64,000 nucleotides of DNA from Opitutia bacterium UBA3534. Lineage in GTDB: Bacteria; Verrucomicrobiota; Verrucomicrobiia; Opitutales; UBA3534. The notes below the pieces were generated by a model, which did not search any database, was not told the origin of the DNA, and saw only the letters and a program-made list of their open reading frames with translations. The position numbers were made by a program, and so were the translations under genes. Each line of letters starts with the position of its first letter. Position 1 is the stretch's first letter. The stretch is taken from assembly GCA_002376875.1 (NCBI GenBank), contig DFOT01000003.1, positions 37,191 to 101,190 on the forward strand, read 5' to 3'. Shown in pieces: positions 1,836 through 53,747 of the stretch.

Positions 1836-1930
1836 ACGGACGATAGCACCTTGGGTTTGCTGGTAGACGTCAAGCAGACGCTGCTGGAAGCTTAGGTATC
1901 CAGGTTCTTCAGCAAGAACGGGTAAAGTAC

Positions 1931-1996
1931 TTAAAAAAAAACCGCTACTAAAGTGAGTAGCCTTTTTCCTGGCTTTAAACGTGGGACAAGCAGCAT
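1931..1996 (-). other. 22-codon ORF encoding a signal-peptide-like N-terminus, stopped inside a T9 run; probably the detached 5' end of the protease gene
   Basis: Own translation from ATG 1996..1994 gives MLLVPRLKPGKRLLTLVAVFF, then TAA formed by the last T of the run (A9 on the plus strand, 1933..1941). One extra T would fuse it in frame to ...LSTLPVLAEEPGYLSFQQRLLDVYQQTQGAIVRVLATI. Confidence 0.6.
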
Positions 1997-2003
1997 GGGA
2001 GGG

Positions 2004-2468: not shown

Positions 2469-2476
2469 AACAGGGT

Positions 2477-3115: not shown

Positions 3116-3217
3116 AGACTAAACTTATATAGAAACACTTTACCATCCCTGTTGTTTTGGAGCAATCTTTAAAGAAATGTCGCACTAAAAAGACTTATAT
3201 TTGATTTTAGATTATTT

Positions 3218-4075: not shown

Positions 4076-4114
4076 CCCTTAGACTATAGTCTGTAGATGA
4101 AGTAGGCTCAAGGT

Positions 4115-6178
4115 TTAATCGCTTGAGTTAAAGACGAGCTCGCGATTAGCTTCGTTGAAGCGGCGGTACCCTTGACGAGGGAGGACATCTAAAAAGTATT
4201 TGCCGTAGCTTTTGCGAAACAGGCGCCCATCGAGGAGTGTGATGATCCCGGTGTCTGCCTTATTGCGGACGAGGCGGCCAAGCCCTTGGCGGAACTTAAT
4301 AAGAGCTTCCGGTAGGGTTATATCCATAAATGGGTTTCCTCCTTTGAGGCGCAGCCATTCATGAAAAGCTTGCTTGATAGGGTGGGAAGGGTTCTCGAAT
4401 GGAAGGCGGGTGATGATTACTTGAGATAGGGCAGCTCCGGGGATATCGATCCCTGTCCAAAAGCTATCTGTTCCAAGGAGGACTGCATTTCCTGCTTTTT
4501 TGAATTCTTGGATAAGCTCGTGCCGAGAATATCTTTTGCCCTGGATAAAAACAGGACGAGGGCTTGATACGAGGCGCTCTTCGAGTAACGGGCCGATTCG
4601 ATACATATCAGCATAGCTTGTGAAAAGGATAAGGGTTCCTCCAGAAACTTGTTCGATACAGAATGAGAGCGTATCTAGTAGATAGTCTGTATCGAGTCTT
4701 GACTCTCGGGGGCTTGGGTCGGGCGCATCGGTTGCAATATAAATTTGGGTGTTTCGCTCGAAATCAAAAGGAGATTTCTCGATAAAATGAGAAAACCCTT
4801 GAGCACCTACTTGCTCACAAAAGTGAGTCATGCTATTTCCTTGAGCTAAAGTTGCGCTCGTTAGGAGTACGGAAGTGTGGCGTGCGAATAGGACTTTCTC
4901 AAGATATGAAGCCACATCAATAGGGGCTGAGCGTAATGTAGGAATGTTGGTATTCTTACCAGAAGTCTCGGCCCAAAAGACCGAATCGGATTCTTCCAAG
5001 GTAATACAACGGAGTAGTCCGCTATGATAGCCTTGTAAACGTTTGCACTGGTTTTGGATTTCTTCAGCAAGAGCCTCATTGCTTGTTCTTTGGGTGAGGC
5101 TTGCAAGGCGTTGAATTAAGTTCTTGAGCGTGTTGCAGAAGCGGGTATCAATCCAGTCTGGTTCTGAAATGCGACTGATTTTCTTTTTTTCGAGGAAACG
5201 TTCGTGTACCGCATCAAAAAAAGCTTCAGCCTCAGAGAGCGCCATAGTGACAGCTGCTAGATCATCAGTGGATCCGCAGTTCGTTAGGATTCCCTTGTTG
5301 CGCTTTGGGTTGAAGAGCATTTTGAGGGTAAGAAAAATACCTGCAGCGCTGATACGTACGCCAAAGTGATCTCTGGCAATATCAGGAACTGTGTGAGCTT
5401 CGTCTAAGACAAGGAAATCTTCTGGGTACAAAATACCTGGGGTGCTGCCTTCTGGGTTTTGTCCTGCGCTAATGAGTGAAAACAGAAGGCTGTGGTTGAG
5501 TATGATGACGTGAGCCTTGCGTTGCTTGATGCGTGCTTTTTGATAAAAGCAAGTTTTAGGGCTGCAGCGCTTAGGGTTACAGGTAGTAGAATCTGCGTGC
5601 ACCCAATTCCAGACGTTGAAAGAGGGTTGAGGCATGAGTTCCTCTATAAGTCCTGTCTCGGTTGTTTCAGCCCATTGAGCAATGCGTTCTAGCTCTTGTT
5701 GGTCTGCAGAAGGGAATAAATCAATATGTGATTGCAGCGCTTGGGCGAGTCGTGTGGTACATAGGTAGTTGCCCCGTCCCACGAGGAGTGCGGCTTTAAA
5801 GTCTTGAAAAGGTTCAAGTTCAGGAGTGCTTTGGAAGAGTTTACGGCAAAGCTCCAGATCTTGAGTCAGGATTTGTTCTTGTAGGGATTTTGTATGCGTG
5901 GAGACAACAAAAGGACGTTCTTCTTGGACAGCTTTGAGAATGCCAGGGATTAGGTAGGCTAAGCTTTTCCCTACACCTGTACCGGCTTCAAAAAGTAAGG
6001 GGGTTTCTTCTGTAAAGCCTTGAGCAACGGAGCAAGCCATAGTGCTTTGCTCGGGCCTAAACTCTAGATTTAGAGCATTGTGTAGTAGGCCTTTGGGTTT
6101 GAAAATCTCTTCGGTTAGTGTTTGGAGATCAGGCGTGTCTGGGCATGCGGAAGGATGTGTTGCTGTACAGGCTTGCAT
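4115..6178 (-). CDS. dinG: DinG/Rad3-family ATP-dependent DNA helicase
   Basis: 687 aa. It has Walker A GTGVGKS, a DEAH box (VLDEAHTV), a Cys cluster (TTCNPKRCSPKTCF) typical of Fe-S XPD/DinG helicases, and C-terminal helicase motifs (TDSFWTGIDIPG). Confidence 0.85.
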   Translation of the reverse strand: MQACTATHPSACPDTPDLQTLTEEIFKPKGLLHNALNLEFRPEQSTMACSVAQGFTEETPLLFEAGTGVGKSLAYLIPGILKAVQEERPFVVSTHTKSLQEQILTQDLELCRKLFQSTPELEPFQDFKAALLVGRGNYLCTTRLAQALQSHIDLFPSADQQELERIAQWAETTETGLIEELMPQPSFNVWNWVHADSTTCNPKRCSPKTCFYQKARIKQRKAHVIILNHSLLFSLISAGQNPEGSTPGILYPEDFLVLDEAHTVPDIARDHFGVRISAAGIFLTLKMLFNPKRNKGILTNCGSTDDLAAVTMALSEAEAFFDAVHERFLEKKKISRISEPDWIDTRFCNTLKNLIQRLASLTQRTSNEALAEEIQNQCKRLQGYHSGLLRCITLEESDSVFWAETSGKNTNIPTLRSAPIDVASYLEKVLFARHTSVLLTSATLAQGNSMTHFCEQVGAQGFSHFIEKSPFDFERNTQIYIATDAPDPSPRESRLDTDYLLDTLSFCIEQVSGGTLILFTSYADMYRIGPLLEERLVSSPRPVFIQGKRYSRHELIQEFKKAGNAVLLGTDSFWTGIDIPGAALSQVIITRLPFENPSHPIKQAFHEWLRLKGGNPFMDITLPEALIKFRQGLGRLVRNKADTGIITLLDGRLFRKSYGKYFLDVLPRQGYRRFNEANRELVFNSSD

Positions 6179-6180
6179 GG

Positions 6181-7197
6181 CTATTTGAGGATTTGTTGTT
6201 TGCTGTGGAGTGTCTCAGCGATTTGAAGTGCATTCAGGGCAGCCCCTTTCCAGAGTTGATCACCTACAACCCAGAAGGCCAAGCCGTTGTCCAGGGCGGT
6301 GTCTTTGCGTAAGCGCCCGATCCCGCAATGAATGTTTTGTGTTTGGTTAAGAGGCATCGGGTAAGGAGGGGTAGCTTGGGTATCGTAATAATCAATGCCT
6401 GAGAACTCTTTTAGGGCAGCTTGGGCTTCACTTAAGTTAATAGGCTTTTGGAATTCTGCATTAATGGCAATCGCATGAGCCCGCATTGTAGGTACGCGTA
6501 CGCAAGTGGTCGAGACGTGTAGCTCGGGGAGTTCTAGGATTTTACGGCTCTCCTCGAGCATTTTGTGCTCCTCTTTAGTGTAGCCACTTTCTAGGAAACT
6601 ATCGACCTGAGGGATCAGGTTAAAGGCGATTGGGTGTGGGTATATTTTTGGTTGGGCAGGTTCATCTTTTTGCCAAGCGTTTATTTGGGTGCTTAGCTCA
6701 TTGATCCCTGCAACGCCATTCCCAGAGACGGCCTGGTAGGTGCTGGCAATAAAGCGTGTCAGGCCGAATTGTTGGTGTAAGGGGTAAAGCCCCATTAGGG
6801 CAATGGCTGTGGAGCAGTTAGGGTTTGCGATGAGCTGAGGTGCTTCATCGAGTGCTGAGGCATTAATTTCTGGGATAATTAGAGGGACCTCTGGGTCTTG
6901 TCGGAAGGCTGCGCTATTATCTATGATAATGCAGTCTTTGTTTTTTGCTTTAGGAATTAAGTCTCGAGCAACAGCATTGCTTGTACAGAAGAATGCGAGA
7001 TCAATTTCCTTAAAGGTATCTTCAGTGGCTTCCTGGGTAGATATTTGCGAGCCTCGGAAGGTGACGGAGGTTCCTGCGGAGCGGGCAGACGCTAGAGGTA
7101 GAAGTGTTTCGCAGGGGAAATTCCTTTCTTCTATGAGTTTAATGAGCTCTTGGCCTACGGCACCTAAGGCTCCTATGACGCCTATTTTATAATTCAT
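6181..7197 (-). CDS. asd: Aspartate-semialdehyde dehydrogenase
   Basis: 338 aa. N-terminal Rossmann motif IGVIGALGAVGQE, active-site region IANPNCSTAIAL, and overall Asd-like length and layout. Confidence 0.9.
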   Translation of the reverse strand: MNYKIGVIGALGAVGQELIKLIEERNFPCETLLPLASARSAGTSVTFRGSQISTQEATEDTFKEIDLAFFCTSNAVARDLIPKAKNKDCIIIDNSAAFRQDPEVPLIIPEINASALDEAPQLIANPNCSTAIALMGLYPLHQQFGLTRFIASTYQAVSGNGVAGINELSTQINAWQKDEPAQPKIYPHPIAFNLIPQVDSFLESGYTKEEHKMLEESRKILELPELHVSTTCVRVPTMRAHAIAINAEFQKPINLSEAQAALKEFSGIDYYDTQATPPYPMPLNQTQNIHCGIGRLRKDTALDNGLAFWVVGDQLWKGAALNALQIAETLHSKQQILK

Positions 7198-7232
7198 TTT
7201 CTGTAGTATTATTGATAGTCTTGGTCTTAGTT

Positions 7233-7724
7233 ATGTTAAAGCAAGCTATTAAAGAGGGTATAGTCGTTTCTATCGCACAGCAGTCTTTATCTTTTTATGC
7301 TGAAGGTAAGCTTTTGAAATCTTACCCTGTATCAACTTCCTTAAAGCCGCCTTCTTGTGAGCAGGATTCTTGGGGTACTCCTTGGGGAGAGCATATAATC
7401 ATAGACAAAATAGGAGCCCAAGCGCCTTTAGGGATGGTCTTTAAAGGCCGCAAGCCTACAGGTAAACTTTATACGGAGTATTCTGTTGAAGATCAGGCTG
7501 GAGACTTGATTACAAGCCGTATTTTGAGGCTTCGTGGGGAAGAAGAAGGGATTAATAGTGGTGGCAGTTGTGATACCTATAAGCGCATGATTTATATTCA
7601 TGGGACCAATCATGAGTCTAAGATTGGACAACCTCTTAGTAAGGGATGTATTCGAATGTGTAATAATGCCATTGCTGAGCTTTTTGATCTGGTTGAAGTG
7701 GGTACGCGCGTATGGATTAGTTGA
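7233..7724 (+). CDS. L,D-transpeptidase (YkuD) domain protein
   Basis: YkuD catalytic motif IHGTNHESKIGQPLSKGCIRM. ATG 7233 is preferred over TTG 7212 from the track. No obvious signal peptide. Confidence 0.75.
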   Translation: MLKQAIKEGIVVSIAQQSLSFYAEGKLLKSYPVSTSLKPPSCEQDSWGTPWGEHIIIDKIGAQAPLGMVFKGRKPTGKLYTEYSVEDQAGDLITSRILRLRGEEEGINSGGSCDTYKRMIYIHGTNHESKIGQPLSKGCIRMCNNAIAELFDLVEVGTRVWIS

Positions 7725-7764
7725 AGAACTCGCTAGCCCTTTTGGGTAGCGGATTTAAAAGCAG

Positions 7765-7792
7765 TTGACATTTCTCAAAAGGATTGCATACT
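7765..7792 (+). promoter_or_regulatory. Candidate sigma-70-type promoter for the flp/tad operon
   Basis: TTGACA (7765..7770), 16-nt spacer, CATACT (7787..7792), about 145 nt upstream of the flp ATG. Pattern match only. Confidence 0.3.
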
Positions 7793-7936
7793 CTTGATTT
7801 AGCTTTCACTTACTCTTAAGTGCGAGCAACTTAAACAAAAACGTCAATAAATATACCCCTGCTTCCGTTTAAGGCTATTTTTAACCCCTAAACCCTGGCG
7901 TGGGTGAACATTAAAAAACTCTAAAAACAAAGAACT

Positions 7937-8113
7937 ATGTCTCACAAAAAACAAGGACAAGGATTAGTTGAATACATCATTCTCGTAGGTTTGATTGCGC
8001 TACTCGTTTTCGGATTAGTAAAAGCCTTTGGTGATGAAGTAGGAGATACTATCGAAGAAATGACTGATTCCACCGAAGATGTCGGTAAGGAAATCAAAAA
8101 AGGCCGGAAGTAA
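7937..8113 (+). CDS. flp: Flp-family type IVb pilin (58 aa), absent from the supplied ORF track (<60 aa)
   Basis: Own translation: MSHKKQGQGLVEYIILVGLIALLVFGLVKAFGDEVGDTIEEMTDSTEDVGKEIKKGRK*. It has the Flp motif G/QGLVEY followed by a hydrophobic helix, and sits directly upstream of the secretin and ATPase genes. Confidence 0.8.
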   Translation: MSHKKQGQGLVEYIILVGLIALLVFGLVKAFGDEVGDTIEEMTDSTEDVGKEIKKGRK

Positions 8114-8264
8114 TTAGCCATTAGAATCGCTGAGACCTATCAGTCCTGATGGGTTCTTAGTGTTTCTAGTCGAATAATAATTTCCTTTTTTGTAGGGGCT
8201 CTCTTTTTTGAAAAAGAGCAGCTGTCTCCCTATATCTTTGAATAACGATTATATTAGTATCTTA

Positions 8265-9860
8265 ATGAATATGCTATATGACCCCAGAGAGTCTTTCCAA
8301 AGGCTGCGTGTTACCTTTTTAACCCTAGCAATAGCAGCGGCCTTCGGCGTGACGCCAAGGATAGCACTTGCTGATATCGATGAAGATTTCTTGTTTACTA
8401 ACGGAAATACCTCCTCGAGTCGTTCTCAAATGAATGGAAGACAGCAAGGAATGCAATCCACCACTAGAAACGGACGTGCACTCTATAAGATGCGTGTCGG
8501 AGAAACTAAAAACTTCTCCCTTAAAGGAACAGCGGAAACGATTAATGTCGAAACCCCTGATGTTGTAGAGCTCTTTTTACCAGAGCCTGGAACGTTATCC
8601 ATAACAGGAGTAGACAAAGGTGTAACTACCTTAGCTATTCGTTATGAGGATGGCTCCATCAACATGCTAGGTGTCATTGTTTCCGAAGAAGGCGAAATCC
8701 CTGCTGACATTTTGTTAACCCGGCTCGAGACAGCTTTGGGCAGTGTGGATGGATTGAGCCTCGAAGTTCGTGAAGGTAAAGTTCTTATTACAGGAACTGC
8801 AGATACTCGTAACAAAAACTACTATAAACAAGTAGTAGGTTTGTTTAGAGATGAAGTGATCAGTCGTGTTCGGTTTACGGACGAGATGATTTCACCTGCG
8901 GCTTCTGACATGATGGTTGCCTCAAACATCGCTCAGCCAGATGACATGACTCCTTCAACAGGGATTGTCCAAGTTGATGTGAAGATTGTTGATGTTAACC
9001 TCGATAGAGCAAAGCACATTGGTGTTTCTTGGTTTAATACAGGAACAGGTGCTGCCTTCAACGGAGATTATGGCGTTCAGTCTGGTGATGGAGCAACAAG
9101 CCCTGGTGGAGGCGGTAGCCGCCTTTCAGTAGGAGGCTTGCTTTCTGTTGAAGACCTTGATGCTAAACTTCGTTTCTTGGTGAATCGTAGTGCAGCCCGT
9201 TTGCTTGCAACACCTAAGCTTGTTGTTGCCAGTGGCGAGACTGCTAGCTTCAATGTAGGTGGAGAGATCCCTATTGTTCGTGAGACTAACGAAAACTTCT
9301 CTGTAGAATATAAGAAGTTTGGTACCTTACTTGAAGTGACTCCTGTGATTATGGGTACTCACTATGTCGATGTGCACGTGAAGTCTACCCTAAGTTCTAT
9401 TGATGAAAACTTAGTTGTAGGAAGCTCGAACATGCCTGCTTTCAAAAACAAAGATGCAGACACCCGTTTGACAGTGAAAAGTGGAACCACTTTTGCCCTT
9501 GCAGGCCTTATTCAGCAAGAAGAGTCAAACAGTCATTCAAAGCTCCCTGTTTTGGGTGATGTGCCAGGACTTAGCCTTGTCTTTAAGAATAAGTCTCGCT
9601 CTTTTACAACTACGGAAACCTTGGTTTTGATGACACCCTACCTCGTTACCGATGTTGATAATCGTTTGACTCATGATAAGAAGCCAATGTTAGGCAGTGA
9701 ATCTATCATTGATGTTTTGAATGCAATGGACGGCAACTTAGTGCCTGAAGATTACAGCAGAACTCAAGACATTAGTGACTCAGGTGCCTACGAATTTGAC
9801 GAGCATGAGCATTTCACTATGCGTCAACACCGTCGCAGGAACCGTGTACGAGGTCGATAA
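8265..9860 (+). CDS. cpaC: Tad pilus secretin (CpaC/RcpA family)
   Basis: Secretin C-domain (LLATPKLVVASGETASFNVGGEIPI...KLPVLGDVPGLSLVFKNK...TLVLMTPYLV). A signal-peptide-like segment LTLAIAAAFGVTPRIALA follows ATG 8265. The track alternative start is TTG 8208. Confidence 0.85.
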   Translation: MNMLYDPRESFQRLRVTFLTLAIAAAFGVTPRIALADIDEDFLFTNGNTSSSRSQMNGRQQGMQSTTRNGRALYKMRVGETKNFSLKGTAETINVETPDVVELFLPEPGTLSITGVDKGVTTLAIRYEDGSINMLGVIVSEEGEIPADILLTRLETALGSVDGLSLEVREGKVLITGTADTRNKNYYKQVVGLFRDEVISRVRFTDEMISPAASDMMVASNIAQPDDMTPSTGIVQVDVKIVDVNLDRAKHIGVSWFNTGTGAAFNGDYGVQSGDGATSPGGGGSRLSVGGLLSVEDLDAKLRFLVNRSAARLLATPKLVVASGETASFNVGGEIPIVRETNENFSVEYKKFGTLLEVTPVIMGTHYVDVHVKSTLSSIDENLVVGSSNMPAFKNKDADTRLTVKSGTTFALAGLIQQEESNSHSKLPVLGDVPGLSLVFKNKSRSFTTTETLVLMTPYLVTDVDNRLTHDKKPMLGSESIIDVLNAMDGNLVPEDYSRTQDISDSGAYEFDEHEHFTMRQHRRRNRVRGR

Positions 9861-9914
9861 GTCTAACCTTTTATACGTATAGCCCTATTACCTCCTTAAG
9901 AATACCCCTCATAA

Positions 9915-11522
9915 ATGTCCTATTTGGTAGAAGCCATACTCGATGATTTACCTGTTCAGGGTCTCCCCTTTCAAGATGGGGAGATCGTGTTCGGGTCCAA
10001 GTCAACTTGCAGTATGGTGCTTGAGGGAGACGGCGTAGAGTCCGAGCATGCTAGGTTAGTTATTGCTGGGGATTCTATGCGTTTATGGAGGTTGTCTAAA
10101 AAAGAACCTCTTTATGTAAATCGTAATAGCGTCAACTCGACGATTATTACACGTGATGATGTTCTTCATATAGGTCCTTACCTGATTAAGTTCATTGACT
10201 CTGGTTTTGATGAGTCTGGCGGGGCCTATGATACAACTGGTCTAAAGATGAGTATCCACCAGTCTTTAGTGGTGGAGCTCGATTTAGGCAAGTTAGATCT
10301 CAAAGAGTTAAGTGACCATGACCTTTGGGTAAAGTGTGATCGCCTTATTGATCGGATCATTAAGGATGCGTATATCCCTTCAGGGGTTGATGTTAAGAAG
10401 CTCAAGCTTGACGTCTTGCGTGAAGCTTTAGCCTTGGGCCCCTTAGAAGAACTCCTTGAGGATGAAGCAGTCACTGAAATTATGGTGAATGCTAAAGATG
10501 AGATCTTCATTGAAAAAGGAGGTAATCTGACAAAGACGGAACTCGCGTTCACTTCAGATGCGCAGGTAGTTAACGTGATTAGTCGTATCGTTAATCCTTT
10601 AGGAAGACGTATTGATGAAAGCAGTCCTTTGGTAGATGCTCGTCTAAAAGATGGCTCTCGCGTTAATGCGATTATTCCTCCTCTAGCCCTTAAAGGCCCT
10701 AGTATTAGCATTCGTAAGTTTGCTAAGGAAAAATTTAAAGCTGAGGACTTAATTGGGTTCGGAAGTATTACCGCTGAAATTGTTGAATTCCTTAAGTTTT
10801 CAGTTTCTTTTGGGAAGCGTAACGTAGTTATTTCTGGAGGTACAGGGTCGGGTAAGACGACCTTGCTTAACCTTTTATCTAACTTTATTCCTGATAAAGA
10901 ACGTATTGTAAGTATCGAAGACTCTGCCGAGCTTCAACTTAATCAGCCTAATTTAGTTTCTTTAGAAGCTCGTCCCCCTAATATTGAAGGGAAGGGCGCT
11001 ATTACTATCCGTGATTTGGTGAAAAATTCACTTCGGATGCGCCCTGACCGTGTGGTTGTGGGTGAGTGTCGTGGTGCTGAGACATTAGATATGTTGCAGG
11101 CGATGAACACCGGTCACGATGGTTCGTTAACAACTTTGCACGCTAATGATGCTGCAGAGGCTGTTTTACGTATTGAGACCATGGTTATGATGGCTGGGTT
11201 TGATTTGCCTGTAGCAGTGATTCGTCGTCAGATTTGCTCAGCGGTTAATATCATTGTTCAGCAAAATCGTCTGACGGATGGTTCACGACGCATTACTCGT
11301 GTGTGTGAGGTTGTAGGGATCGATGGGCTGGATGTATTGATGGAAGATATTTTCCTTTTTAAGCGTACGGGATTCAACGATGAAGGCCGTATTACAGGGT
11401 ACTTTACGGCGACAGGTTATGTACCTCAATTCGTAAAAGATGCCGAAAAAGTCGGAATGAAATTAGATAGTAAGATTTTTGAACCTACACCTCCTCCAGG
11501 AGGTCAAGAGCCTAGCATGTAG
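9915..11522 (+). CDS. cpaF: CpaF/TadA-family secretion ATPase with an N-terminal FHA-like domain
   Basis: 535 aa. The N-terminal ~95 aa are FHA-like (IVFGSKSTCSMVLEGDGVESEHARLVI...VLHIGPYLIKF). The T2SSE core has Walker A GGTGSGKTT and the motifs ECRGAE and MNTGHDGS. Confidence 0.9.
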   Translation: MSYLVEAILDDLPVQGLPFQDGEIVFGSKSTCSMVLEGDGVESEHARLVIAGDSMRLWRLSKKEPLYVNRNSVNSTIITRDDVLHIGPYLIKFIDSGFDESGGAYDTTGLKMSIHQSLVVELDLGKLDLKELSDHDLWVKCDRLIDRIIKDAYIPSGVDVKKLKLDVLREALALGPLEELLEDEAVTEIMVNAKDEIFIEKGGNLTKTELAFTSDAQVVNVISRIVNPLGRRIDESSPLVDARLKDGSRVNAIIPPLALKGPSISIRKFAKEKFKAEDLIGFGSITAEIVEFLKFSVSFGKRNVVISGGTGSGKTTLLNLLSNFIPDKERIVSIEDSAELQLNQPNLVSLEARPPNIEGKGAITIRDLVKNSLRMRPDRVVVGECRGAETLDMLQAMNTGHDGSLTTLHANDAAEAVLRIETMVMMAGFDLPVAVIRRQICSAVNIIVQQNRLTDGSRRITRVCEVVGIDGLDVLMEDIFLFKRTGFNDEGRITGYFTATGYVPQFVKDAEKVGMKLDSKIFEPTPPPGGQEPSM

Positions 11523-11527
11523 AGCTT

Positions 11528-12373
11528 ATGATTAACTTAGCATATATTCTTATTTTTACTTCTATCACACTTTTCTTTTTTGTGATCGAGGATATTGTTC
11601 ATTATAACTATGCTGCGATGCAGGATCACCTGCATACAACACGCGCAGAGCGTCAGAATGGTTTAGATTCTTTGCTAAGCTCTGAAGAGAACCAACTTTG
11701 GATTGCCTTAGGCATTGGCGCTTTATGTGCTTTAGTTGGGTTTTATCTTTTAGGCACTATTGGGTCAATTGGCTTTGGTCTACTTGGTGCTTGGGCGCCT
11801 TTGCTTTTAGCTCGTTTGCGTGAAGCCCGTCGGATTAAGACTATAGAGCTTCAGCTCGTGCCCACCTTGAATCTTCTTTCAAACTCTGTACAATCTGGGA
11901 AGACTCTCCAGCAGGGGCTAGAGGAAGTTTCCTTAACCGCTGACTATCCTATTTCTTCAGAGCTTTCTTTAGTGGCCCGTCAAGTTCGAGTGGGGCTTTC
12001 TCAAGAGGATGCATTAAACTCTTTTGCAGATCGTGTGCCTTTACCTGATGTTAACCTGACTGTTCAGGCAATGATCGTCTCTTTACGTACAGGTGCTAAT
12101 TTGCCTCGAGCCATTAAGCTGATTGCGGATTCTGTTATGAATCGTATGCATGTAGAGGCTAAAATCCGCGTGTTAACCGCGCAAGGGAAGGCTCAGGGAG
12201 TTGTGCTTGGTTTAGCGCCTTGGGCAATTCTAGGTGTATTCTATTTAATGAGTCCTGAGTATGCTTCTGTGATGTTTACTACAGGTTTAGGGAATTTTAT
12301 TCTTATAACAGTTCTTATCCTGGACCTTTTAGCGATGTTTTGGATTAACAAAATTATTAGTATCGACGTCTAA
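11528..12373 (+). CDS. tadB: Tad inner-membrane platform protein TadB (T2SSF domain)
   Basis: 281 aa polytopic protein. T2SSF-like segment LNLLSNSVQSGKTLQQGLEEVS...LSQEDALNSFADRVPLPDV. Positioned directly after the ATPase gene. Confidence 0.8.
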   Translation: MINLAYILIFTSITLFFFVIEDIVHYNYAAMQDHLHTTRAERQNGLDSLLSSEENQLWIALGIGALCALVGFYLLGTIGSIGFGLLGAWAPLLLARLREARRIKTIELQLVPTLNLLSNSVQSGKTLQQGLEEVSLTADYPISSELSLVARQVRVGLSQEDALNSFADRVPLPDVNLTVQAMIVSLRTGANLPRAIKLIADSVMNRMHVEAKIRVLTAQGKAQGVVLGLAPWAILGVFYLMSPEYASVMFTTGLGNFILITVLILDLLAMFWINKIISIDV

Positions 12374-27199: not shown

Positions 27200-27216
27200 T
27201 TGAGACTCAGTTTCAA
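27200..27216. promoter_or_regulatory. 17-bp imperfect palindrome (candidate metalloregulator operator) upstream of feoA
   Basis: On the feoA sense strand it reads TTGAAACTGAGTCTCAA, ending 21 nt before the feoA ATG. A near-identical copy lies upstream of fur (60607..60623). Confidence 0.4.
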
Positions 27217-27217
27217 T

Positions 27218-27249
27218 AAAAAACCCCGCTCATTTTAGAACGGGGTTTT
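27218..27249. terminator. Rho-independent terminator downstream of hpf (A/T-flanked, potentially bidirectional)
   Basis: AAAAAA-CCCCG (27218..27228), 12-nt loop, CGGGG-TTTT (27241..27249). It starts 22 nt beyond the hpf stop on the minus strand. Confidence 0.7.
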
Positions 27250-28602: not shown

Positions 28603-29613
28603 ATGCCCCAACCTAAGTCAGCCGGACTTTTTCTCGGAATTTGCGAAACGATTACCCCGTATTCCAGCTTGATTGTCAGCCCCCTGGCAAAGGGTTATTT
28701 TTTTAATATTGGAGAGGGGTCTATCCTCGCAGCGAGGACTTCACGCATGGGAGGGGCTATGACGATTGAGGCGTTAGAGTCTGCCCAGTACAATAATGCA
28801 CAAGAGCTCAAAGCAGCCATTCGTAAGATTACCGGAAATAGAACCACAGCCCTCACACGTTCCTATTGCGCAATCCAGCTTGATGGTCAGTTCTTTCACC
28901 ATGCAACCTTCGAGAATCCTGATAAATCTCGAGATGTAGAGTTCTTGCAGAAATATCTCAAGACAGACCTCAGGGTTGATGTAGATACTAATACTGTTGC
29001 TGCTATGAATGCTATGGATGGATCTCCATTGGGCGCCATGGGGACTACAGAATTACTCTTTCTGGGGGCTCCGTCTGAAGCGTTTGGTCAGATGCAAGAT
29101 GACTTGATTGATGCAGGCCTTTATACAGAAGAGTTAGAAATGAGTATCGTCAGTACGCTCGGTGGTATTTTAAATTATGCTGCTTTTGCGGAGATGGAGC
29201 GCCCCATCCTCGTTTTGGCTATGCACAGCAAGCAGACAGAATTCTTCATTTGTCACGAAGGGCGCCTAGATTTAAGTAAGCAGATTAATTTTGGATTTGA
29301 CCAAATCCCTCAAGGAGACGTTTCCCAGGAAGATGCGATCGCTGCCCTAGAGCCTTTGCTTAAAGATCTTCAGTCTTCTACAAGCTTTTATGAACTTAAG
29401 CAGGGAGATATGCTTCGGAAGCTGTTTTTTATTAACTTCCCCAAGCAATTAGAGTTTGTAGAGCAGCACTTGTCTGATGCTTTAGGTCTAGAGCTTATTA
29501 AGCCTAATTATGAAGAATGGTTAGCTACCTGCGAGATTACACCAGGTAAAGGTGTTGATATGGCAGGGCTTGGAAGCCGTTGGTTAAGTCTTTTCAGTTT
29601 AATGTGTGACTAA
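28603..29613 (+). CDS. pilM: Type IV pilus assembly protein PilM-like (actin-like ATPase fold)
   Basis: 336 aa. PilM-like layout (LLFLGAPSEAFGQMQDDLIDAGLYTEELEMSIVSTLGG...ILVLAMHSKQTEFFICHEG), followed by PilN/O/P/Q-like genes. Confidence 0.65.
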   Translation: MPQPKSAGLFLGICETITPYSSLIVSPLAKGYFFNIGEGSILAARTSRMGGAMTIEALESAQYNNAQELKAAIRKITGNRTTALTRSYCAIQLDGQFFHHATFENPDKSRDVEFLQKYLKTDLRVDVDTNTVAAMNAMDGSPLGAMGTTELLFLGAPSEAFGQMQDDLIDAGLYTEELEMSIVSTLGGILNYAAFAEMERPILVLAMHSKQTEFFICHEGRLDLSKQINFGFDQIPQGDVSQEDAIAALEPLLKDLQSSTSFYELKQGDMLRKLFFINFPKQLEFVEQHLSDALGLELIKPNYEEWLATCEITPGKGVDMAGLGSRWLSLFSLMCD

Positions 29614-29633
29614 GGTCCTTAATAGAAAATAGT

Positions 29634-30254
29634 GTGAGCAGATCAGGAAATCGCCGTTGGCATACAAATTTTAGAGATGTGAGCAAACTTCCTAACCTAG
29701 AGGAAGTGAAGCAGCAGTTCATGGTTTCTGCTATAGTCCTAGGGCTTGCGTTAGTTTTGATGGGCTTTTACATCATGGGTAAGACCGAGCGCATCATTGT
29801 AGATGAGCAAATCCATTCCCTCGAGCAGACATTTGCCGAAAAGGAAGCGAATAACATTGCTAATATTGCTGCGGATGCTGCTTTCCAAGAAAAGTCAGCA
29901 TTCATCCAGGAAATTGATGACTTTTATCGCTCTGGGGTGGACCCTGTAGCTCTATTCCTGGCGATATCAAGTAAGCGGCCCAAGGATCTAGTGTTCGAAA
30001 GTTTTCGTTTAGAAAATGTTTCGGATGCTACGCTTAATGAAGAAGGTGAACTTTACGAAGTTTCTTTAGACGGCTTCATTCGCTCAGGGTATGATGAGGC
30101 TTTTCAGGCGGTTAAGGTTTTTGGGCGTCAGCTAGAGAAGGACCCTTATTTAGAGCCTATTTTTCGTGATTTAGAAGTTGAAAAACTGACACGTGGGGCA
30201 GGGATGTCAAAAATGATGACTTTCACTATAGTTATAAAACTGGAGATTTCTTAG
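29634..30254 (+). CDS. pilN: PilN-like pilus alignment protein
   Basis: 206 aa with a GTG start. Short cytoplasmic N-terminus, one TM helix (FMVSAIVLGLALVLMGFYIMG), a coiled-coil-like segment, and synteny after pilM. Confidence 0.5.
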   Translation: MSRSGNRRWHTNFRDVSKLPNLEEVKQQFMVSAIVLGLALVLMGFYIMGKTERIIVDEQIHSLEQTFAEKEANNIANIAADAAFQEKSAFIQEIDDFYRSGVDPVALFLAISSKRPKDLVFESFRLENVSDATLNEEGELYEVSLDGFIRSGYDEAFQAVKVFGRQLEKDPYLEPIFRDLEVEKLTRGAGMSKMMTFTIVIKLEIS

Positions 30255-30857
30255 ATGGCTTCTGAAGATGCAGTAGATACTTTAAGTAAATACCCTTATG
30301 CTGTTGCTGGGGTTGCCATTATTATTGCTGTTATTTTTCTTTGGTTTACGGCCGAAGACAGTATGCAGAAAGATAATCGATTGATGGATCTAGAGCAGGC
30401 AGTGCGGATTGTGGAGCATAATGAACGCTCTTCTGAAGGCTTAGATAGAGATTTAAAGAACCTCGAGAAGTTTCATGAAAGTATTGTCGAGCGCTTAGTA
30501 GAGGTTGATAATGCTACTGAGATTCTTGCCTTTTTCTTACGTGCTGAAGAAGAGTCCGGTGTCAAAATGAAAGACCCCAAGGAAGATGATATTACGCCTC
30601 TGAAAACGATTGATGAAGAAGACTACGATGATGAAGACTTCGAGTTATCGCCAGACGACCGGATGATTGCTCAGTACCAATTGACTATTGGAGGAACATT
30701 TCCTCAGGTCCTAACTTTTGTTGATAAAATATATAACGGTCCTTACTTCGTAAACGTATCGAGCTTTGAAATGGGCCGTGAAACTAAATTTAGCCCAAAA
30801 CATGTTCAGATGGCTCTCAAAGTTAATATTTTAGGAAGGAGAGGTGACAGTGAATAA
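30255..30857 (+). CDS. pilO: PilO-like pilus alignment protein
   Basis: 200 aa. One TM helix (YAVAGVAIIIAVIFLWF), then a coiled-coil and a C-terminal domain. The start abuts the pilN stop. The call rests mainly on synteny. Confidence 0.45.
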   Translation: MASEDAVDTLSKYPYAVAGVAIIIAVIFLWFTAEDSMQKDNRLMDLEQAVRIVEHNERSSEGLDRDLKNLEKFHESIVERLVEVDNATEILAFFLRAEEESGVKMKDPKEDDITPLKTIDEEDYDDEDFELSPDDRMIAQYQLTIGGTFPQVLTFVDKIYNGPYFVNVSSFEMGRETKFSPKHVQMALKVNILGRRGDSE

Positions 30858-31353
30858 ATCAAGCGTTACTATTCTCTTTACTGTAATAGCAGTCATGTGG
30901 GGAGCGACTACGGGCTTGGCGCAAGAGGAAAATACTCGAATCTTGTCTCAAACAAGTCGTAGCAAAATACTCAAGCATGCACGGATTTACTCAAAGCCTA
31001 TAGCAGGTGAAAAGAACTTCGATAATGTGCGCATCCCTTTTGTTTATGTTGAAGGTAATGCCGGTGAAGAGGCTGTTTCTCTAGAAGATATTACAGATGC
31101 TGATATTTTACGCTATATCGCCAAGGTACGTAAACCCAATGGGCGCGTAAAACGGCGTGACAAATATTACCTCATTTTCAGCTTCGGGGTCCGTAAGGCA
31201 GGGGATACTATCACAGCCCCTTACGGAGGAAATATCCATGAAGTACTCATCGAGGAAGTGAATCAACAATTTTACAAACTTCGGTTCAACGAAGAAACAA
31301 TAACCATACCTTTTTCAAAAGTTGATAAAAAACGTCTAAGAAAAGACACCTAG
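30844..31353 (+). CDS. PilP-like periplasmic protein (assignment by position)
   Basis: 169 aa. Signal peptide (VTILFTVIAVMWGATTGLAQE). It overlaps pilO by 14 nt and lies immediately upstream of the secretin gene. Confidence 0.35.
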   Translation: MTVNKSSVTILFTVIAVMWGATTGLAQEENTRILSQTSRSKILKHARIYSKPIAGEKNFDNVRIPFVYVEGNAGEEAVSLEDITDADILRYIAKVRKPNGRVKRRDKYYLIFSFGVRKAGDTITAPYGGNIHEVLIEEVNQQFYKLRFNEETITIPFSKVDKKRLRKDT

Positions 31354-31368
31354 GACTTTAACCTTAAA

Positions 31369-33492
31369 ATGAAAAACACCATGTCTGTTAACAAAAATAC
31401 CCTTTTGGTGATCCTGTTGTGTGCAGCTCCCTTAACTGTTGCCTGGGGTGCCGATCGTTTGGGCTTTTTAGATGAGCCTATGGAGCCTCGCTTCCAGCAA
31501 TCCTTCGATGATCAGTACGATGACGAGGATGATGACTGGCTCTTTGATGACAGCTATGGCTTCAGTGAAGAAGAGGGCGGCTACCAAGAGCCTGCCACAC
31601 CAGAGCAGCCTACAGCAGTCATGACACAAGAGGACTTGGACGACATGGACTTCATGGATGATGAGGATGAAGAAGAAATGTACTTCGAAGACTCCGATGA
31701 GATGATGGCTTTCGAAGAGATGCCTGCTGAAGAAGAGGATATGCTCGAGGAGGACACCATGTTTGAAGACGACGACATGGCTGATTCAGAGGACATGATG
31801 TTCATGGATGATATGGACGATGACGAAGAGATGTTCATGGATGATGAAGAGTTCTTTATGGACGATGAGGACGAATTCTTCATGGATGATATGGCTGATA
31901 TGGATGACGATGCTCTATATTCCGATGAGCCTATCATGCCCGCTACTACTCCTATGGCTCAAGCTGCAGAGCCTAAGCCCTCCACAGAGCAAATTATTGA
32001 AGAGACCTCACCTAAGCTTGAAACGTTCTCCATTGATTTTCCTGAAGAAGAAATCCGCAATATTATTCGTAATGTAGCGGATCTTTACGGGCTGAATGTT
32101 GTTATCCCTGATACCTTAATCGGGATGACTTCTATTACTCTTAATAACGTAAGTTGGCAGCAAGTTTACCGTGCTGTGCTAGAGCCAGTAGGGTTTACTT
32201 ACGTGATGGATGGTAACATTATTAAAATTGTATCCTCTGCAGAGCTTGAGACAGAGCAGATGGAGACTGAGATTTTCCCCCTTCGTTTTGCAGTGTCTAC
32301 AGAAGCAGCTACAGCACTTGGAGGTATGCTTGATGTAACAAGTGGAGCAAAAGTCGCTGCGGATGCACGTACAAATTCTTTGATTGTAACCGAGCGTCCT
32401 TCACGTATGGCTAAGATTGAAGAAATTGTGAAGCGCCTAGACCGTGAAGAAACTCAGATCATGATCGAGTCTAAGTTTGTTGAGATCAAAAACAAAGACA
32501 CCAAGACCCTTGGTATTGACTGGAATAGTCTTGGTGCGAGTGGGTCTACGTTCCAGCTTGCTAATAGTTTAACTACCGCGGGAGCAGCCCAGGGTGTACC
32601 TGCTAGATCATTTATAAAGCAAGAGGGAGGAGATACTACAGTTGGCCAGGTTGCTAGTAAGCGTACCGACAATGTTGTTTTTGCTGCTCCTGACTTTCAG
32701 TTGGTTTTACATGCTTTAGAGCAAGACAATGACACTCGCCTCATTGCTAACCCAACAGTGGTGACGATGAATAATACGCCTGCAGTTGTTGCTATTGCAG
32801 ATCAGCGGCCTATTCCTGAGTACCAATATAATGGAGAAACAGGAGTTTATGAAATCTCAGGGTTCGAGTACAAAGATATTGGAATTATCCTGAATGTAAC
32901 ACCTAACGCAAAGCAGGATCTTATCACACTTAATATCAAGCCAGAGATTAGTTCTAGTAATAGTAATACACGATTTGGGGCAGCCACCAGTAGTTCTACT
33001 ATCGAGATTCCTAACATTACTTCACGCCGCACAGAGAGTGTTGTTACCATTAAGAGTGGTTACACCTTAGCCATTGGTGGCTTGGTTCGCTCTGAGTACA
33101 CAAATAATGACAACCGTGTTCCCTTCCTAGGGTACATTCCTGTTATTAAGCGCCTCTTTAGTTACGATAATCGTATTCTTGAAAATAAGAACATCATCGC
33201 TTTTGTAACAGCAACTCAGATCGGTTATGATGGTTCTATGCCTGAGCCTATCACGACTCCTGTCAAAAACGTTGATGAGCGTCAAGTTTATGAAATGGGC
33301 TTGTCTGAGCTCGAGATGTACATTAAGCGCCCTGATGCCAATATGGAAGGCCAGATGCAGCGCATTCGCCAGATACGTAATGCAACTTATGGCTCAGAAT
33401 ATTCAGAGGCATTCTCTTCAGACTTAGATGAAACAAAGCCTGATGTTAAGAGAAGACGCAGTCGCCGGAATCGAGTAGGGCGCCAGCACTAA
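31369..33492 (+). CDS. pilQ: Type IV pilus secretin PilQ-like with a long acidic N-terminal insert
   Basis: 707 aa with a signal peptide. Secretin_N-like region (IRNIIRNVADLYGLNVVIPD...) and secretin C-domain (LIANPTVVTMNNTPAVVAIADQRPIP...VPFLGYIPVIKRLF). Confidence 0.85.
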   Translation: MKNTMSVNKNTLLVILLCAAPLTVAWGADRLGFLDEPMEPRFQQSFDDQYDDEDDDWLFDDSYGFSEEEGGYQEPATPEQPTAVMTQEDLDDMDFMDDEDEEEMYFEDSDEMMAFEEMPAEEEDMLEEDTMFEDDDMADSEDMMFMDDMDDDEEMFMDDEEFFMDDEDEFFMDDMADMDDDALYSDEPIMPATTPMAQAAEPKPSTEQIIEETSPKLETFSIDFPEEEIRNIIRNVADLYGLNVVIPDTLIGMTSITLNNVSWQQVYRAVLEPVGFTYVMDGNIIKIVSSAELETEQMETEIFPLRFAVSTEAATALGGMLDVTSGAKVAADARTNSLIVTERPSRMAKIEEIVKRLDREETQIMIESKFVEIKNKDTKTLGIDWNSLGASGSTFQLANSLTTAGAAQGVPARSFIKQEGGDTTVGQVASKRTDNVVFAAPDFQLVLHALEQDNDTRLIANPTVVTMNNTPAVVAIADQRPIPEYQYNGETGVYEISGFEYKDIGIILNVTPNAKQDLITLNIKPEISSSNSNTRFGAATSSSTIEIPNITSRRTESVVTIKSGYTLAIGGLVRSEYTNNDNRVPFLGYIPVIKRLFSYDNRILENKNIIAFVTATQIGYDGSMPEPITTPVKNVDERQVYEMGLSELEMYIKRPDANMEGQMQRIRQIRNATYGSEYSEAFSSDLDETKPDVKRRRSRRNRVGRQH
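31504..31930 (+). repeat. Low-complexity D/E/M/F-rich coding region inside pilQ
   Basis: About 140 aa dominated by Asp, Glu, Met and Phe (…MDFMDDEDEEEMYFEDSDEMMAFEEM…MFMDDEEFFMDDEDEFFMDDMADMDDD…). At the DNA level TTCATGGATGAT recurs three times. Confidence 0.85.
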
Positions 33493-53301: not shown

Positions 53302-53327
53302 GGGGTGTTGTTGCGGGGGTAAAAAGA

Positions 53328-53681: not shown

Positions 53682-53720
53682 GGAGATAAGTTGCTAATTG
53701 TACTCCAATCCTAACATATA

Positions 53721-53747
53721 GTGTCGGACTGAGGAAGAAAAACTTCA
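53721..53747 (-). promoter_or_regulatory. Candidate sigma-28-type promoter for the FlgM-like/fliS operon
   Basis: The minus strand reads TGAAGTTT-N11-TCCGACAC. The -10 element ends 39 nt upstream of ATG 53681. Confidence 0.35.

What the first reader, a model, noticed from the sequence alone, without database searches (positions are those of the whole stretch)
27200..27216. A 17-bp palindrome is shared upstream of feoA and of fur-sufCBD, a candidate iron-regulon operator
Seen in sequence: read in the direction of the downstream gene, the feoA leader has TTATTGAAACTGAGTCTCAATAAT. The fur leader (60604..60627) has TTAATGAAACTAAGTCTCAACAAA. These are 20/24 identical. The core is TTGAAACT-N-AGTCTCAA, an imperfect 8-1-8 palindrome that also fits TGA-N9-TCA. 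At feoA it lies between a weak -35 and an AATAAT -10-like hexamer, squeezed between the hpf terminator (27218..27249) and the ATG. At fur it ends 40 nt before the ATG. Both downstream units are classic iron-responsive targets (Fe(II) uptake and Fe-S assembly), and a Fur-family regulator is encoded right behind one copy. The motif does not resemble the classical GATAATGATAATCATTATC Fur box. It may therefore be a lineage-specific Fur-family operator or the site of another regulator (Rrf2/IscR/RirA-like).
Basis: partly seen in the sequence, partly recalled or inferred. Interest (0 to 1): 0.55.

Follow-up and report, generated by a model that had tools for sequence, protein, structure and literature searches.

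The report
Conserved Fur-type operator before feoA

Summary
TTGAAACTGAGTCTCAA (feoA leader, 27216..27200, minus strand) and ATGAAACTAAGTCTCAA (60607..60623) are the best-matching pair of intergenic 24-mers in the window: 21/24, against at most 19 in shuffles.

It lies upstream of feoA in 23 of 29 distant Opitutales feo loci (FeoB 41-50% identical), including cultured Horticoccus luteus. It lies upstream of the Fur-family-suf operon in about 17 of 80 genomes. There are no strong matches elsewhere in 428 kb of feo loci.

M1 is a Fur-type 7-1-7 inverted repeat, TGAAACT-N-AGTCTCA, matching the Bacillus Fur box at 10 of 14 positions. At feoA it overlaps the predicted -35 and spacer.

The adjacent regulator is PerR/Irr-like. 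All 81 orthologs have Asn where Fur has the Arg that reads the G of TGA. A second palindrome, M2 (TTAGAATTATTCTAA, 60637..60651), is a better candidate for its operator. M2 is Per-box/ICE-like, present in 78 of 79 genomes and found nowhere else. M1 sits 29 bp upstream of M2, in the slot that a second M2 copy holds in other lineages.

Best reading: M1 is the box of a separate iron-sensing Fur paralogue. The regulator's identity is inferred, not shown. I rate this a new member of a known kind, of moderate interest.

The parts
27200..27216 (-). M1 copy 1. TTGAAACTGAGTCTCAA; the 7-1-7 core TGAAACT-G-AGTCTCA is at 27215..27201. Candidate iron-regulator operator in the feoAB promoter.
   Evidence: An orthologous motif lies upstream of feoA in 23/29 Opitutales loci and in Horticoccus luteus.
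60607..60623 (+). M1 copy 2. ATGAAACTAAGTCTCAA; core at 60608..60622. Distal operator of the perR/irr-like-sufCBD promoter.
   Evidence: Conserved at the same place and in the same orientation in about 17 of 80 genomes. Its centre is 28-29 bp upstream of the M2 centre in 15 loci, including the window.
60637..60651 (.). M2. The perfect palindrome TTAGAAT-T-ATTCTAA, Per-box/ICE-like. Candidate autoregulatory operator of the adjacent PerR/Irr-like protein. It lies in the spacer of the predicted promoter.
   Evidence: Present in 78/79 orthologous upstream regions, and all 120 sites in 777 kb lie there. Matches the ICE consensus TTTRGAAYNRTTCYAAA at 15/16 positions.
27211..27216 (-). Predicted -35 hexamer TTGAAA of feoA; it is the left half of M1.
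   Evidence: Read from the sequence. The hpf terminator's U-tract abuts M1, so there is no room for another -35. Relatives show the same TTGAAA-17 nt-TACATT/TATATA geometry. Inferred; no TSS data.
27188..27193 (-). Predicted weak -10 CACAGT of feoA, 17 nt after TTGAAA and 9 nt before the ATG.
   Evidence: by geometry shared with relatives. Inferred.
27218..27249 (-). hpf intrinsic terminator, immediately upstream of M1.
   Evidence: -19.5 kcal/mol, z = -5.0, followed by a U-run.
24785..27178 (-). feoA (26942-27178) and feoB (24785-26929), the regulated Fe(II) uptake operon.
   Evidence: FeoB is 100% identical to P0121 from a TARA Oceans contig.
60630..60658 (+). Predicted promoter of the perR/irr-like-suf operon: -35 TTGTTT (60630-60635), a 17-nt spacer holding M2, and -10 TACATT (60653-60658). 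The ATG is 5 nt downstream, so the mRNA may be leaderless.
   Evidence: Relatives show the same layout, TTGA/TTGC followed by M2. Inferred.
60664..61098 (+). Fur-family regulator, PerR/Irr-like: ATVYN recognition helix, PerR-type Asp, no CxxC zinc site, invariant Y-C-P-N.
61095..64000 (+). sufC (61095-61853), sufB (61866-63281) and sufD (from 63288, running off the window).
   Evidence: The fur-sufC-sufB order is conserved in 74-80 of 80 loci.

Best explanation
M1 (consensus TTGAAACT-S-AGTCTCA) is the operator of an iron-responsive repressor of the Fur family. It is specific to the order Opitutales.

At feoAB the site covers the predicted -35 hexamer (TTGAAA, its own left half) and most of the spacer. 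A bound dimer would therefore exclude RNA polymerase when iron is sufficient and release the promoter when iron is scarce.

In the window's marine lineage the same box also sits just upstream of the -35 of the perR/irr-like-sufCBD promoter, centred about -49 and 29 bp from M2. This adds iron control to a promoter whose primary operator is M2.

The binder is most likely a classical Fur paralogue with Arg in the recognition helix, encoded outside the 82 kb I could see. It is probably not the adjacent PerR/Irr-like protein, which is predicted to use M2.

Shown: the motif, its conservation, its specificity for feoA and perR-suf upstream regions, its 7-1-7 form, the 29-bp slot equivalence, and the Asn in the neighbouring protein. 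Inferred: the promoter positions, repression, the iron signal and the identity of the protein.
For: (1) Conservation. In the metagenome feo loci, which did not contribute to the M1 PWM, M1 scored at least 14 within 900 nt upstream of feoB in 23/29 loci with FeoB at least 41% identical, against 2/18 below that. A degenerate pattern derived from the sites seen so far, TGMAAYYNAGTCTCA, gives exactly one hit in each of 26 loci, always upstream of feoA or of the Fur-family gene. Twelve distinct feoA sites keep TG..A..T.AGTCTCA invariant while the flanks vary. Named organisms at about 50% FeoB identity are Opitutaceae, and M1 is present in Horticoccus luteus CP080507.1.

(2) Position. M1 ends 18-29 nt before the first feoA start codon. 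Either TTGACA abuts it or its own TTGAAA sits 17 nt before TACATT or TATATA. In the window the terminator leaves no other place for a -35.

(3) Family resemblance. M1 is a 15-bp 7-1-7 inverted repeat with TGA...TCA ends, matching TGATAAT-N-ATTATCA at 10/14. A single Fur dimer binds a 7-1-7 feoAB1 operator in Magnetospirillum, and its Arg57 reads the G of TG (PMC4506495; PMC11353095).

(4) The neighbour is not the likely binder. Asn replaces that Arg in all 81 orthologs. M2, which has T at that position, co-occurs with the gene in 78/79 genomes and nowhere else. Opitutaceae combine M1 at feoA with M2-M2 at perR-suf, so the two motifs coexist as separate, target-specific classes.

(5) M1 and M2 differ consistently at only two positions per half-site: G versus T at position 2, and C versus A at position 6. 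This parallels the Fur-box versus Per-box difference in Bacillus, which is established knowledge (Fuangthong and Helmann 2003); PMC3293774 notes 6 of 7 shared bases per heptamer.
Against: No Arg-type Fur gene was found. None lies in the window, in the 18 kb beyond its ends, or next to any of about 80 feo loci, and I could not scan whole genomes.

The only Verrucomicrobia iron study I found (Akkermansia, PMC12552655) names one Fur and one DtxR and defines no box.

The exact 28-29 bp spacing between M1 and M2 equals the M2-M2 spacing. That could mean the same protein binds both sites cooperatively.

The -10 predicted at the window's feoA (CACAGT) is weak, and no transcription start is known.

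The regulon evidence rests on only two target operons.
Confidence: 0.55

Rival explanations
1. The adjacent PerR/Irr-like protein binds both M1 and M2. It would be the single global Fur-family regulator of these bacteria, with two classes of site.
For: It is encoded directly behind one M1 copy. M1 occupies exactly the slot of the distal M2 copy: M1-M2 centres are 28-29 bp apart in 15 loci, and M2-M2 centres are 29 bp apart in 27 loci. That fits cooperative binding of one protein. Intermediate sites exist, such as L016 TGAAAATAATTCTCA. No second Fur gene was seen.
Against: M1 accompanies the gene in only about 17/80 genomes, against 78/79 for M2. Asn at the base-reading position is invariant, whereas the G at position 2 of M1 is invariant in both half-sites, and Arg is what reads that G in Fur. 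The proximal M2 is kept unchanged in lineages that have M1, so the protein's specificity has not shifted. feoA sites never drift towards M2 across the order.
Confidence: 0.2
2. M1 is the site of a regulator outside the Fur family, for example an Rrf2 protein (RirA/IscR-like, box TGA-N9-TCA) or another dimeric helix-turn-helix (HTH) protein.
For: M1 fits TGA-N9-TCA, the RirA-box consensus. In Rhizobiales the suf operon is controlled jointly by RirA and Irr, which would parallel M1 plus an ICE-like M2 here (PMC1698941).
Against: tblastn with IscR and NsrR probes found no Rrf2 homolog in the window or in any of the roughly 1.2 Mb of loci held at that point. This is a limited test, because whole genomes were not seen. 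Conservation is confined to 15-17 bp, as for a 7-1-7 site, and not the 19-25 bp typical of Rrf2 sites. M1 differs from M2 at just two positions per half-site, which suggests paralogous readers. DtxR-linked feo loci carry a different box, AGTTAG-N6-CTAACT.
Confidence: 0.15
3. M1 is only a promoter element (a -35 TTGAAA plus conserved spacer) or a transcript feature, and not a regulator binding site.
For: The left half supplies a good -35 at feoA. The left/right asymmetry (TGAAACT versus TGAGACT) is conserved.
Against: At perR-suf the left half is ATGAAA, and a separate -35 (TTGTTT or TTGATT) follows 7-8 bp downstream. Some feo loci have their own TTGACA abutting M1. The dyad symmetry and the invariant right half AGTCTCA are not explained by a promoter. 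As RNA, the stem would have a 1-nt loop. There are no Rfam hits.
Confidence: 0.07
4. Chance similarity or a recent local duplication.
For: There are only two copies in the window, and the search pattern was derived from them.
Against: It is the best intergenic 24-mer pair, beyond all shuffles. It is independently conserved at both loci in many distant genomes.
Confidence: 0.01

Closest known systems
Fur box as a 7-1-7 inverted repeat: B. subtilis TGATAAT-N-ATTATCA, and the Magnetospirillum Fur-feoAB1 operator TGCAAAT-C-ATTTGCA (PMC4506495)
   Same: A 15-bp 7-1-7 dyad with TG...CA ends. It lies over the promoter of feoAB. One site per promoter is compatible with one dimer. It matches the Bacillus core at 10/14 positions.
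   Different: Positions 4 and 6 of each half-site differ (TGAAACT/TGAGACT against TGATAAT). There is no overlapping second 7-1-7 or GATAAT hexamer array. The cognate Fur has not been identified, and binding and the metal signal are untested.
Per box (TTATAAT-N-ATTATAA) and PerR autoregulation; Irr ICE box TTTRGAAYNRTTCYAAA (PMC1698941)
   Same: These resemble M2, not M1. M2 matches the Per box at 12/14 and the ICE at 15/16. The adjacent protein is closest to PerR structures and to the NCBIfam Irr/IrrA models, though below their cutoffs. M1 relates to M2 as a Fur box relates to a Per box, with G versus T at position 2.
   Different: M1 itself matches the ICE at only 11/16 and the Per box at 8/14. 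Irr and ICE were reported only in alpha-proteobacteria. Membership of the protein in Irr or PerR is not established.
Dual RirA (TGA-N9-TCA) plus Irr (ICE) control of suf in Rhizobiales; Fur plus Irr control of the Bradyrhizobium irr promoter (the latter from memory: Hohle and O'Brian 2010)
   Same: Two different iron-related operators sit on one suf or irr promoter. One is ICE-like and the other fits TGA-N9-TCA.
   Different: The phylum is different. No Rrf2 gene was found. M1 has Fur-type 7-1-7 dimensions. The parallel is an analogy only.
DtxR/IdeR/MntR iron boxes
   Same: Palindromic operators over the promoters of feo or other metal-uptake genes. A DtxR gene neighbours feo in Akkermansia (PMC12552655) and in loci L117, L120 and L160.
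   Different: Those DtxR-linked loci carry AGTTAG-N6-CTAACT, which is unrelated to M1. M1-bearing loci have no DtxR neighbour.

Membership tests
Fur-family 7-1-7 operator (Fur box) | 15-bp inverted repeat, 7-1-7, with TGA...TCA ends | tested here: met
   The cores are TGAAACT-G-AGTCTCA and TGAAACT-A-AGTCTCA. In 12 distinct feoA sites the G at position 2 and the C at position 14 are invariant.
Fur-family 7-1-7 operator (Fur box) | Sequence match to the classical consensus (TGATAAT-N-ATTATCA / GATAATGATAATCATTATC) | tested here: inconclusive
   10/14 core positions match. Positions 4 and 6 of each half-site differ, and there is no hexamer array. A classical Fur-box scan would probably miss it.
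Fur-family 7-1-7 operator (Fur box) | Recurs upstream of iron-acquisition genes in related genomes | tested here: met
   Upstream of feoA in 23/29 Opitutales feo loci and in Horticoccus luteus, and upstream of the suf operon in about 17/80 genomes. There were no strong hits elsewhere in the feo loci. Only two target operons could be examined.
Fur-family 7-1-7 operator (Fur box) | Overlaps the core promoter (-35/-10) | tested here: inconclusive
   The geometry is consistent: TTGAAA or TTGACA, a 17-18 nt spacer, then TACATT, TATATA or TAAATT, 9-12 nt before the ATG. The promoters are predicted only; there are no TSS data.
Fur-family 7-1-7 operator (Fur box) | Cognate Fur with the base-reading Arg (VYR) encoded in the genome | not testable with these tools
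   Only 82 kb of the source genome and flanks of 10 kb or less of relatives could be read, and none holds such a gene.
Fur-family 7-1-7 operator (Fur box) | Fe(II)-dependent protein binding and iron-dependent repression | not testable with these tools
   Needs EMSA, DAP-seq or RNA-seq.
Autoregulatory operator of the adjacent PerR/Irr-like protein | Co-occurs with the regulator gene across genomes | tested here: not met
   M1 is present in about 17/80 genomes. The other palindrome, M2, is present in 78/79 and only there.
Autoregulatory operator of the adjacent PerR/Irr-like protein | Bases compatible with the protein's recognition helix | tested here: inconclusive
   The helix is ATVYN in 81/81 orthologs. 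Arg at this position reads the G of TG in Fur. Asn-type PerR uses TTA...TAA boxes (established knowledge). This argues against M1 by inference only.
Rrf2 (RirA/IscR) box | TGA-N9-TCA pattern | tested here: met
   The pattern fits trivially (consensus from PMC1698941).
Rrf2 (RirA/IscR) box | Rrf2 regulator present, and a site of about 19-25 bp | tested here: inconclusive
   tblastn with IscR and NsrR probes found nothing in the window or the loci held at that point, but whole genomes were not seen. Conservation is limited to 15-17 bp.
DtxR/IdeR iron box | TTAGG...CCTAA-type palindrome with a DtxR-family gene nearby | tested here: not met
   DtxR-linked feo loci carry AGTTAG-N6-CTAACT. M1 loci have no DtxR gene within 3-10 kb.
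Irr ICE box | TTTRGAAYNRTTCYAAA | tested here: not met
   M1 matches at 11/16. The neighbouring M2 matches at 15/16.

The most novel reading that the evidence does not exclude
Opitutales may run a two-paralogue Fur-family circuit. A classical Fur would read M1. A PerR/Irr-like protein, possibly sensing peroxide or haem (invariant Cys-Pro, no zinc site), would read an ICE-like box, M2, and act as a dedicated regulator of the suf operon.

In the marine lineages, the distal M2 operator of the perR-suf promoter would have been converted in place, by a few point mutations (T to G at position 2, A to C at position 6), into an M1 site. That would hand half of the promoter's control from one paralogue to the other while keeping the 29-bp spacing.

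This would be a traceable natural case of operator rewiring between paralogous regulators. It would also be an Irr/ICE-like system outside the alpha-proteobacteria.
Probability: 0.3. Interest if true: 0.6.

Novelty: new member of a known kind. Interest (0 to 1): 0.38.

Why it matters
Iron regulation in Verrucomicrobia is essentially uncharted. I found no paper on Fur in Opitutales. The one Akkermansia study names the regulators but defines no operator.

A well-defined, order-wide box gives a handle for reconstructing the iron regulon of abundant marine and soil polysaccharide degraders from genomes alone. M1 scores only 10/14 against the core Fur consensus, so a classical Fur-box scan would probably miss it.

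The pairing of M1 with the PerR/ICE-like M2 at one promoter offers a clean system for studying how closely related Fur-family proteins keep their operators apart, and how operators switch owners. None of this changes the general picture of bacterial iron control.

Tried and rejected
- blastn of the fur-suf region against plasmids returned only distant sufB hits and was uninformative.
- I looked for the regulator next to its sites. Probes for Fur, PerR, IscR, NsrR, DtxR and MntR, run against the window and the loci held at the time, found only the suf-linked protein and DtxR genes in three distant loci that lack M1.
- Pfam on window genes around feoAB and upstream of fur, and on neighbours of M1-bearing feo loci, found no transcription factor.
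- An extra M1-like site in L037, 1 kb upstream of fur, lies between convergent genes and is probably chance.
- The Fur-like hit next to feoA in L117 is part of a long DtxR-containing ORF in a distant organism without M1.
- The closest non-identical ortholog, P0002 (84% identical), had no retrievable DNA.
- Extending about 9 kb beyond each window end on the TARA contig gave no new M1 or M2 site and no regulator.
- Literature searches for the motif string and for Fur in Opitutales or Verrucomicrobia found nothing relevant.
- Rfam found no RNA family anywhere in the window.
- I could not devise a query that would pull an Opitutales Arg-type Fur into the top 120 hits of the protein search, so the third search was left unused.
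- I considered an ECF-sigma promoter (TGAAAC...CGTC) and an FNR box (TTGAT-N4-ATCAA) and rejected both because the spacing does not fit.

Full report
**1. The observation**

In gene direction the feoA leader reads TTATTGAAACTGAGTCTCAATAAT (27220..27197, minus strand). The leader of the Fur-family gene reads TTAATGAAACTAAGTCTCAACAAA (60604..60627). The shared core, called M1 here, is TGAAACT-N-AGTCTCA.

With up to 3 mismatches no other credible copy exists in the 64 kb. Among all 28 intergenic segments this pair is the best 24-mer match, 21/24. Twenty shuffles never exceeded 19/24.

NCBIfam confirms feoA, feoB, hpf, a Fur-family protein, sufC and sufB. sufD, an FeS_assembly_P gene and a small ORF follow beyond the window. 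The hpf terminator is real (-19.5 kcal/mol, z = -5), and its U-tract abuts M1. No Rfam family matches anywhere in the window.

The window comes from a marine Verrucomicrobium of the order Opitutales. It lies on a TARA Oceans contig whose FeoB is 100% identical.

**2.

A genome scan with the Fur-family protein returned 80 Verrucomicrobiota loci at 53-65% identity. The fur-sufC-sufB order is kept in 74-80 of them.

A metagenome scan with FeoB returned 80 loci at 32-53% identity. Named homologs at about 50% identity are Opitutaceae.

I built a weight matrix for M1 from the two window sites and the fur-linked sites. In the feo loci, which contributed nothing to that matrix, M1 scored at least 14 upstream of feoB in 23 of 29 loci with FeoB at least 41% identical and enough upstream sequence. 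It did so in only 2 of 18 loci below 41%. No strong hit (score 17 or more) lay anywhere else in those 428 kb.

A degenerate pattern derived from the sites seen so far, TGMAAYYNAGTCTCA, gives exactly one hit in each of 26 loci. Every hit is upstream of feoA or of the Fur-family gene.

Twelve distinct feoA sites keep TTG.A..T.AGTCTCA while the flanking bases vary. The cultured Horticoccus luteus has TTGCAACCGAGTCTCAA 24 nt before its first feoA.

Upstream of the Fur-family gene, M1 is present in about 17 of 80 genomes, always in the same orientation. These are Puniceicoccaceae-like, Cerasicoccus, Ruficoccus, Lentimonas and Coraliomargarita-type lineages. Opitutaceae lack it there.

M1 is therefore a selected element, specific to the order and tied first of all to feoAB.

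**3.

Reading the 80 upstream regions shows a different motif, M2: TTRGAAT-N-ATTCYAA.

- In the window it is the perfect palindrome TTAGAATTATTCTAA at 60637..60651, and it occurs nowhere else in the 64 kb.
- It lies within 160 nt upstream of the Fur-family gene in 78 of 79 loci.
- All 120 sites with at most one mismatch in 777 kb are there.
- It usually occurs twice, with centres 29 bp apart (27 loci), flanking a TTGA or TTGC -35-like element.

In the window and 14 other loci the distal copy is replaced by M1, with centres 28-29 bp apart (60615 to 60644 is 29 bp). Intermediate sites exist, such as L016 TGAAAATAATTCTCA.

M1 and M2 differ consistently at two positions per half-site: position 2 (G versus T) and position 6 (C versus A).

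**4. Which protein reads which box**

The adjacent protein is PerR/Irr-like.

- Its best NCBIfam hits are IrrA, Irr and PerR, all below their cutoffs.
- The closest solved structures are B. subtilis and Leptospira PerR.
- JGI names its orthologs peroxide-stress regulators.
- In all 81 orthologs the recognition helix is ATVYN.
- The PerR ligands His37, His91 and His93 are kept.
- Asp, not Fur's Glu, occupies the Asp104 position.
- The CxxC zinc site is absent.
- The PerR Asp85 position is an invariant Cys inside Y-C-P-N.

In the Magnetospirillum Fur-DNA structures, Arg57 makes bidentate hydrogen bonds to the conserved G of TG in a 7-1-7 feoAB1 operator, and Tyr56 contacts thymines (PMC4506495). 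The window protein has Asn at that position. Asn-type PerR uses TTATAAT-N-ATTATAA, and Fur does not bind Per boxes even though 6 of 7 bases per heptamer are shared (PMC3293774; the Bacillus box consensuses themselves are established knowledge).

M2 matches the Per box at 12/14. It matches the Irr ICE consensus TTTRGAAYNRTTCYAAA at 15/16 (PMC1698941). M1 matches the Fur 7-1-7 core at 10/14, including the TG and CA ends.

Three further points separate the two motifs:

- The two motifs coexist with different targets in the same genomes.
- M2 is strictly linked to the regulator gene.
- The proximal M2 is unchanged where M1 appears.

My conclusion is that M2 is the neighbour's own operator and that M1 belongs to a paralogous, Arg-type, iron-sensing Fur encoded elsewhere. 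This step is an inference. I could not find that gene in the 82 kb accessible from this genome or next to any feo locus.

**5. Mechanism**

At feoA, M1 ends 18-29 nt before the start codon in all lineages. Either a TTGACA abuts it, or its own left half TTGAAA lies 17 nt before TACATT or TATATA, and the -10 ends 9-12 nt before the ATG. In the window the layout is TTGAAA (27216-27211), 17 nt, CACAGT (27193-27188), 9 nt, then ATG. The terminator leaves no other place for a -35. A dimer bound to M1 would therefore occlude the -35 and spacer, which is classical Fur repression.

At the Fur-family-suf promoter the predicted layout is TTGTTT (60630-60635), a 17-nt spacer filled by M2, TACATT (60653-60658), then the ATG 5 nt later. 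M1 is centred near -49. There it could repress together with the M2-bound protein, or add an iron input. Which of these applies is unknown.

Both mRNAs would be leaderless or nearly so. All promoter positions are predictions.

**6. Rivals**

- The neighbour binds both motifs. This is supported by the identical spacing and by the failure to find a second Fur. It is weakened by the co-occurrence figures and by the invariant Asn opposite the invariant G.
- An Rrf2 (RirA/IscR-like) protein binds M1. M1 fits TGA-N9-TCA, and the pairing with an ICE-like box parallels RirA plus Irr control of suf in Rhizobiales. However, no Rrf2 gene was seen, and the conserved span has the size of a 7-1-7 site.
- DtxR. 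Loci with a DtxR gene next to feo carry an unrelated box, AGTTAG-N6-CTAACT.
- A bare promoter element. The separate -35 at the suf promoter and the invariant right half-site argue against this.
- Chance. This is excluded by the conservation data.

**7. Verdict**

M1 is an iron-gene operator of Fur-family type, but probably not that of the regulator encoded beside it.

It is a new, lineage-specific member of a known kind of operator. The searchable literature does not describe it. Interest is moderate.

The more unusual material lies alongside it: the PerR/Irr-like regulator with an ICE-like box dedicated to suf throughout the Verrucomicrobiota sampled, and the apparent in-place conversion of one operator type into the other.

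Noticed in passing
window 60637-60651; loci L001-L080 upstream of the Fur-family gene: A second, perfect palindrome, TTAGAATTATTCTAA (M2), lies between the predicted -35 and -10 of the Fur-family-suf promoter. It is present in 78/79 orthologous regions, usually as two copies 29 bp apart, and nowhere else in 777 kb. It matches the Irr ICE consensus at 15/16 and the Per box at 12/14, although ICE and Irr were reported only from alpha-proteobacteria.
   Followed up: yes
window 60664-61098 and its 80 orthologs: The suf-linked Fur-family protein has an invariant ATVYN helix, a PerR-type Asp at the D104 position and no CxxC zinc site. It also has an invariant Cys-Pro (Y-C-P-N) at the position of the PerR metal ligand Asp85, next to an invariant H-A-H. 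This is reminiscent of haem-regulatory motifs such as the one in Bradyrhizobium Irr. What it senses (peroxide, iron or haem) is open.
   Followed up: partly
window 27179-27216 and 60630-60666; feo loci L081-L113: The predicted -10 hexamers end only 5-12 nt before the start codons of feoA and of the Fur-family gene, and no Shine-Dalgarno sequence is evident. These transcripts may be leaderless or nearly so in this lineage.
   Followed up: no
L117 1351-2703, L120 1087-1560, L160 1158-1661: More distant feo loci (FeoB 36-38% identical) have a DtxR-family gene directly upstream of feoA-feoB. They carry a different operator-like palindrome, AGTTAG-N6-CTAACT, between TTGCAA or TTGACA and TATAAT. In L117 the ORF appears to join DtxR-like and Fur-like segments.
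   Followed up: partly
window 52870-60475: A flagellar gene cluster lies directly upstream of the Fur-family-suf operon in this marine Verrucomicrobium: FliS, FliD, an MptE-like protein, two proteins with no family hit and flagellin.
   Followed up: no
window 28603-33492: Four consecutive ORFs (336, 206, 200 and 169 aa) with no Pfam hit precede a secretin gene (31369-33492). This may be an unannotated pilus or secretion assembly operon. ORFs 19147-20589 and 23612-24616 also have no family hit.
   Followed up: no
L161 (Horticoccus luteus CP080507.1) 1-12313, and L085, L093, L096: In Opitutaceae the feo operon is feoA-feoA-feoB plus a small FeoB_associated gene. It lies just downstream of the ATP synthase operon; in Horticoccus luteus a 1129-aa Ig-domain gene sits between them. 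The window's lineage has a single feoA placed after hpf.
   Followed up: partly
window 24240-24256 (minus strand): An M1-like sequence, TTGATCTTCATTCTCAA (matrix score 17.4), lies inside the unannotated ORF 23612-24616, about 530 bp beyond the 3' end of feoB. It is probably chance, and I did not check whether it is conserved in other lineages.
   Followed up: no
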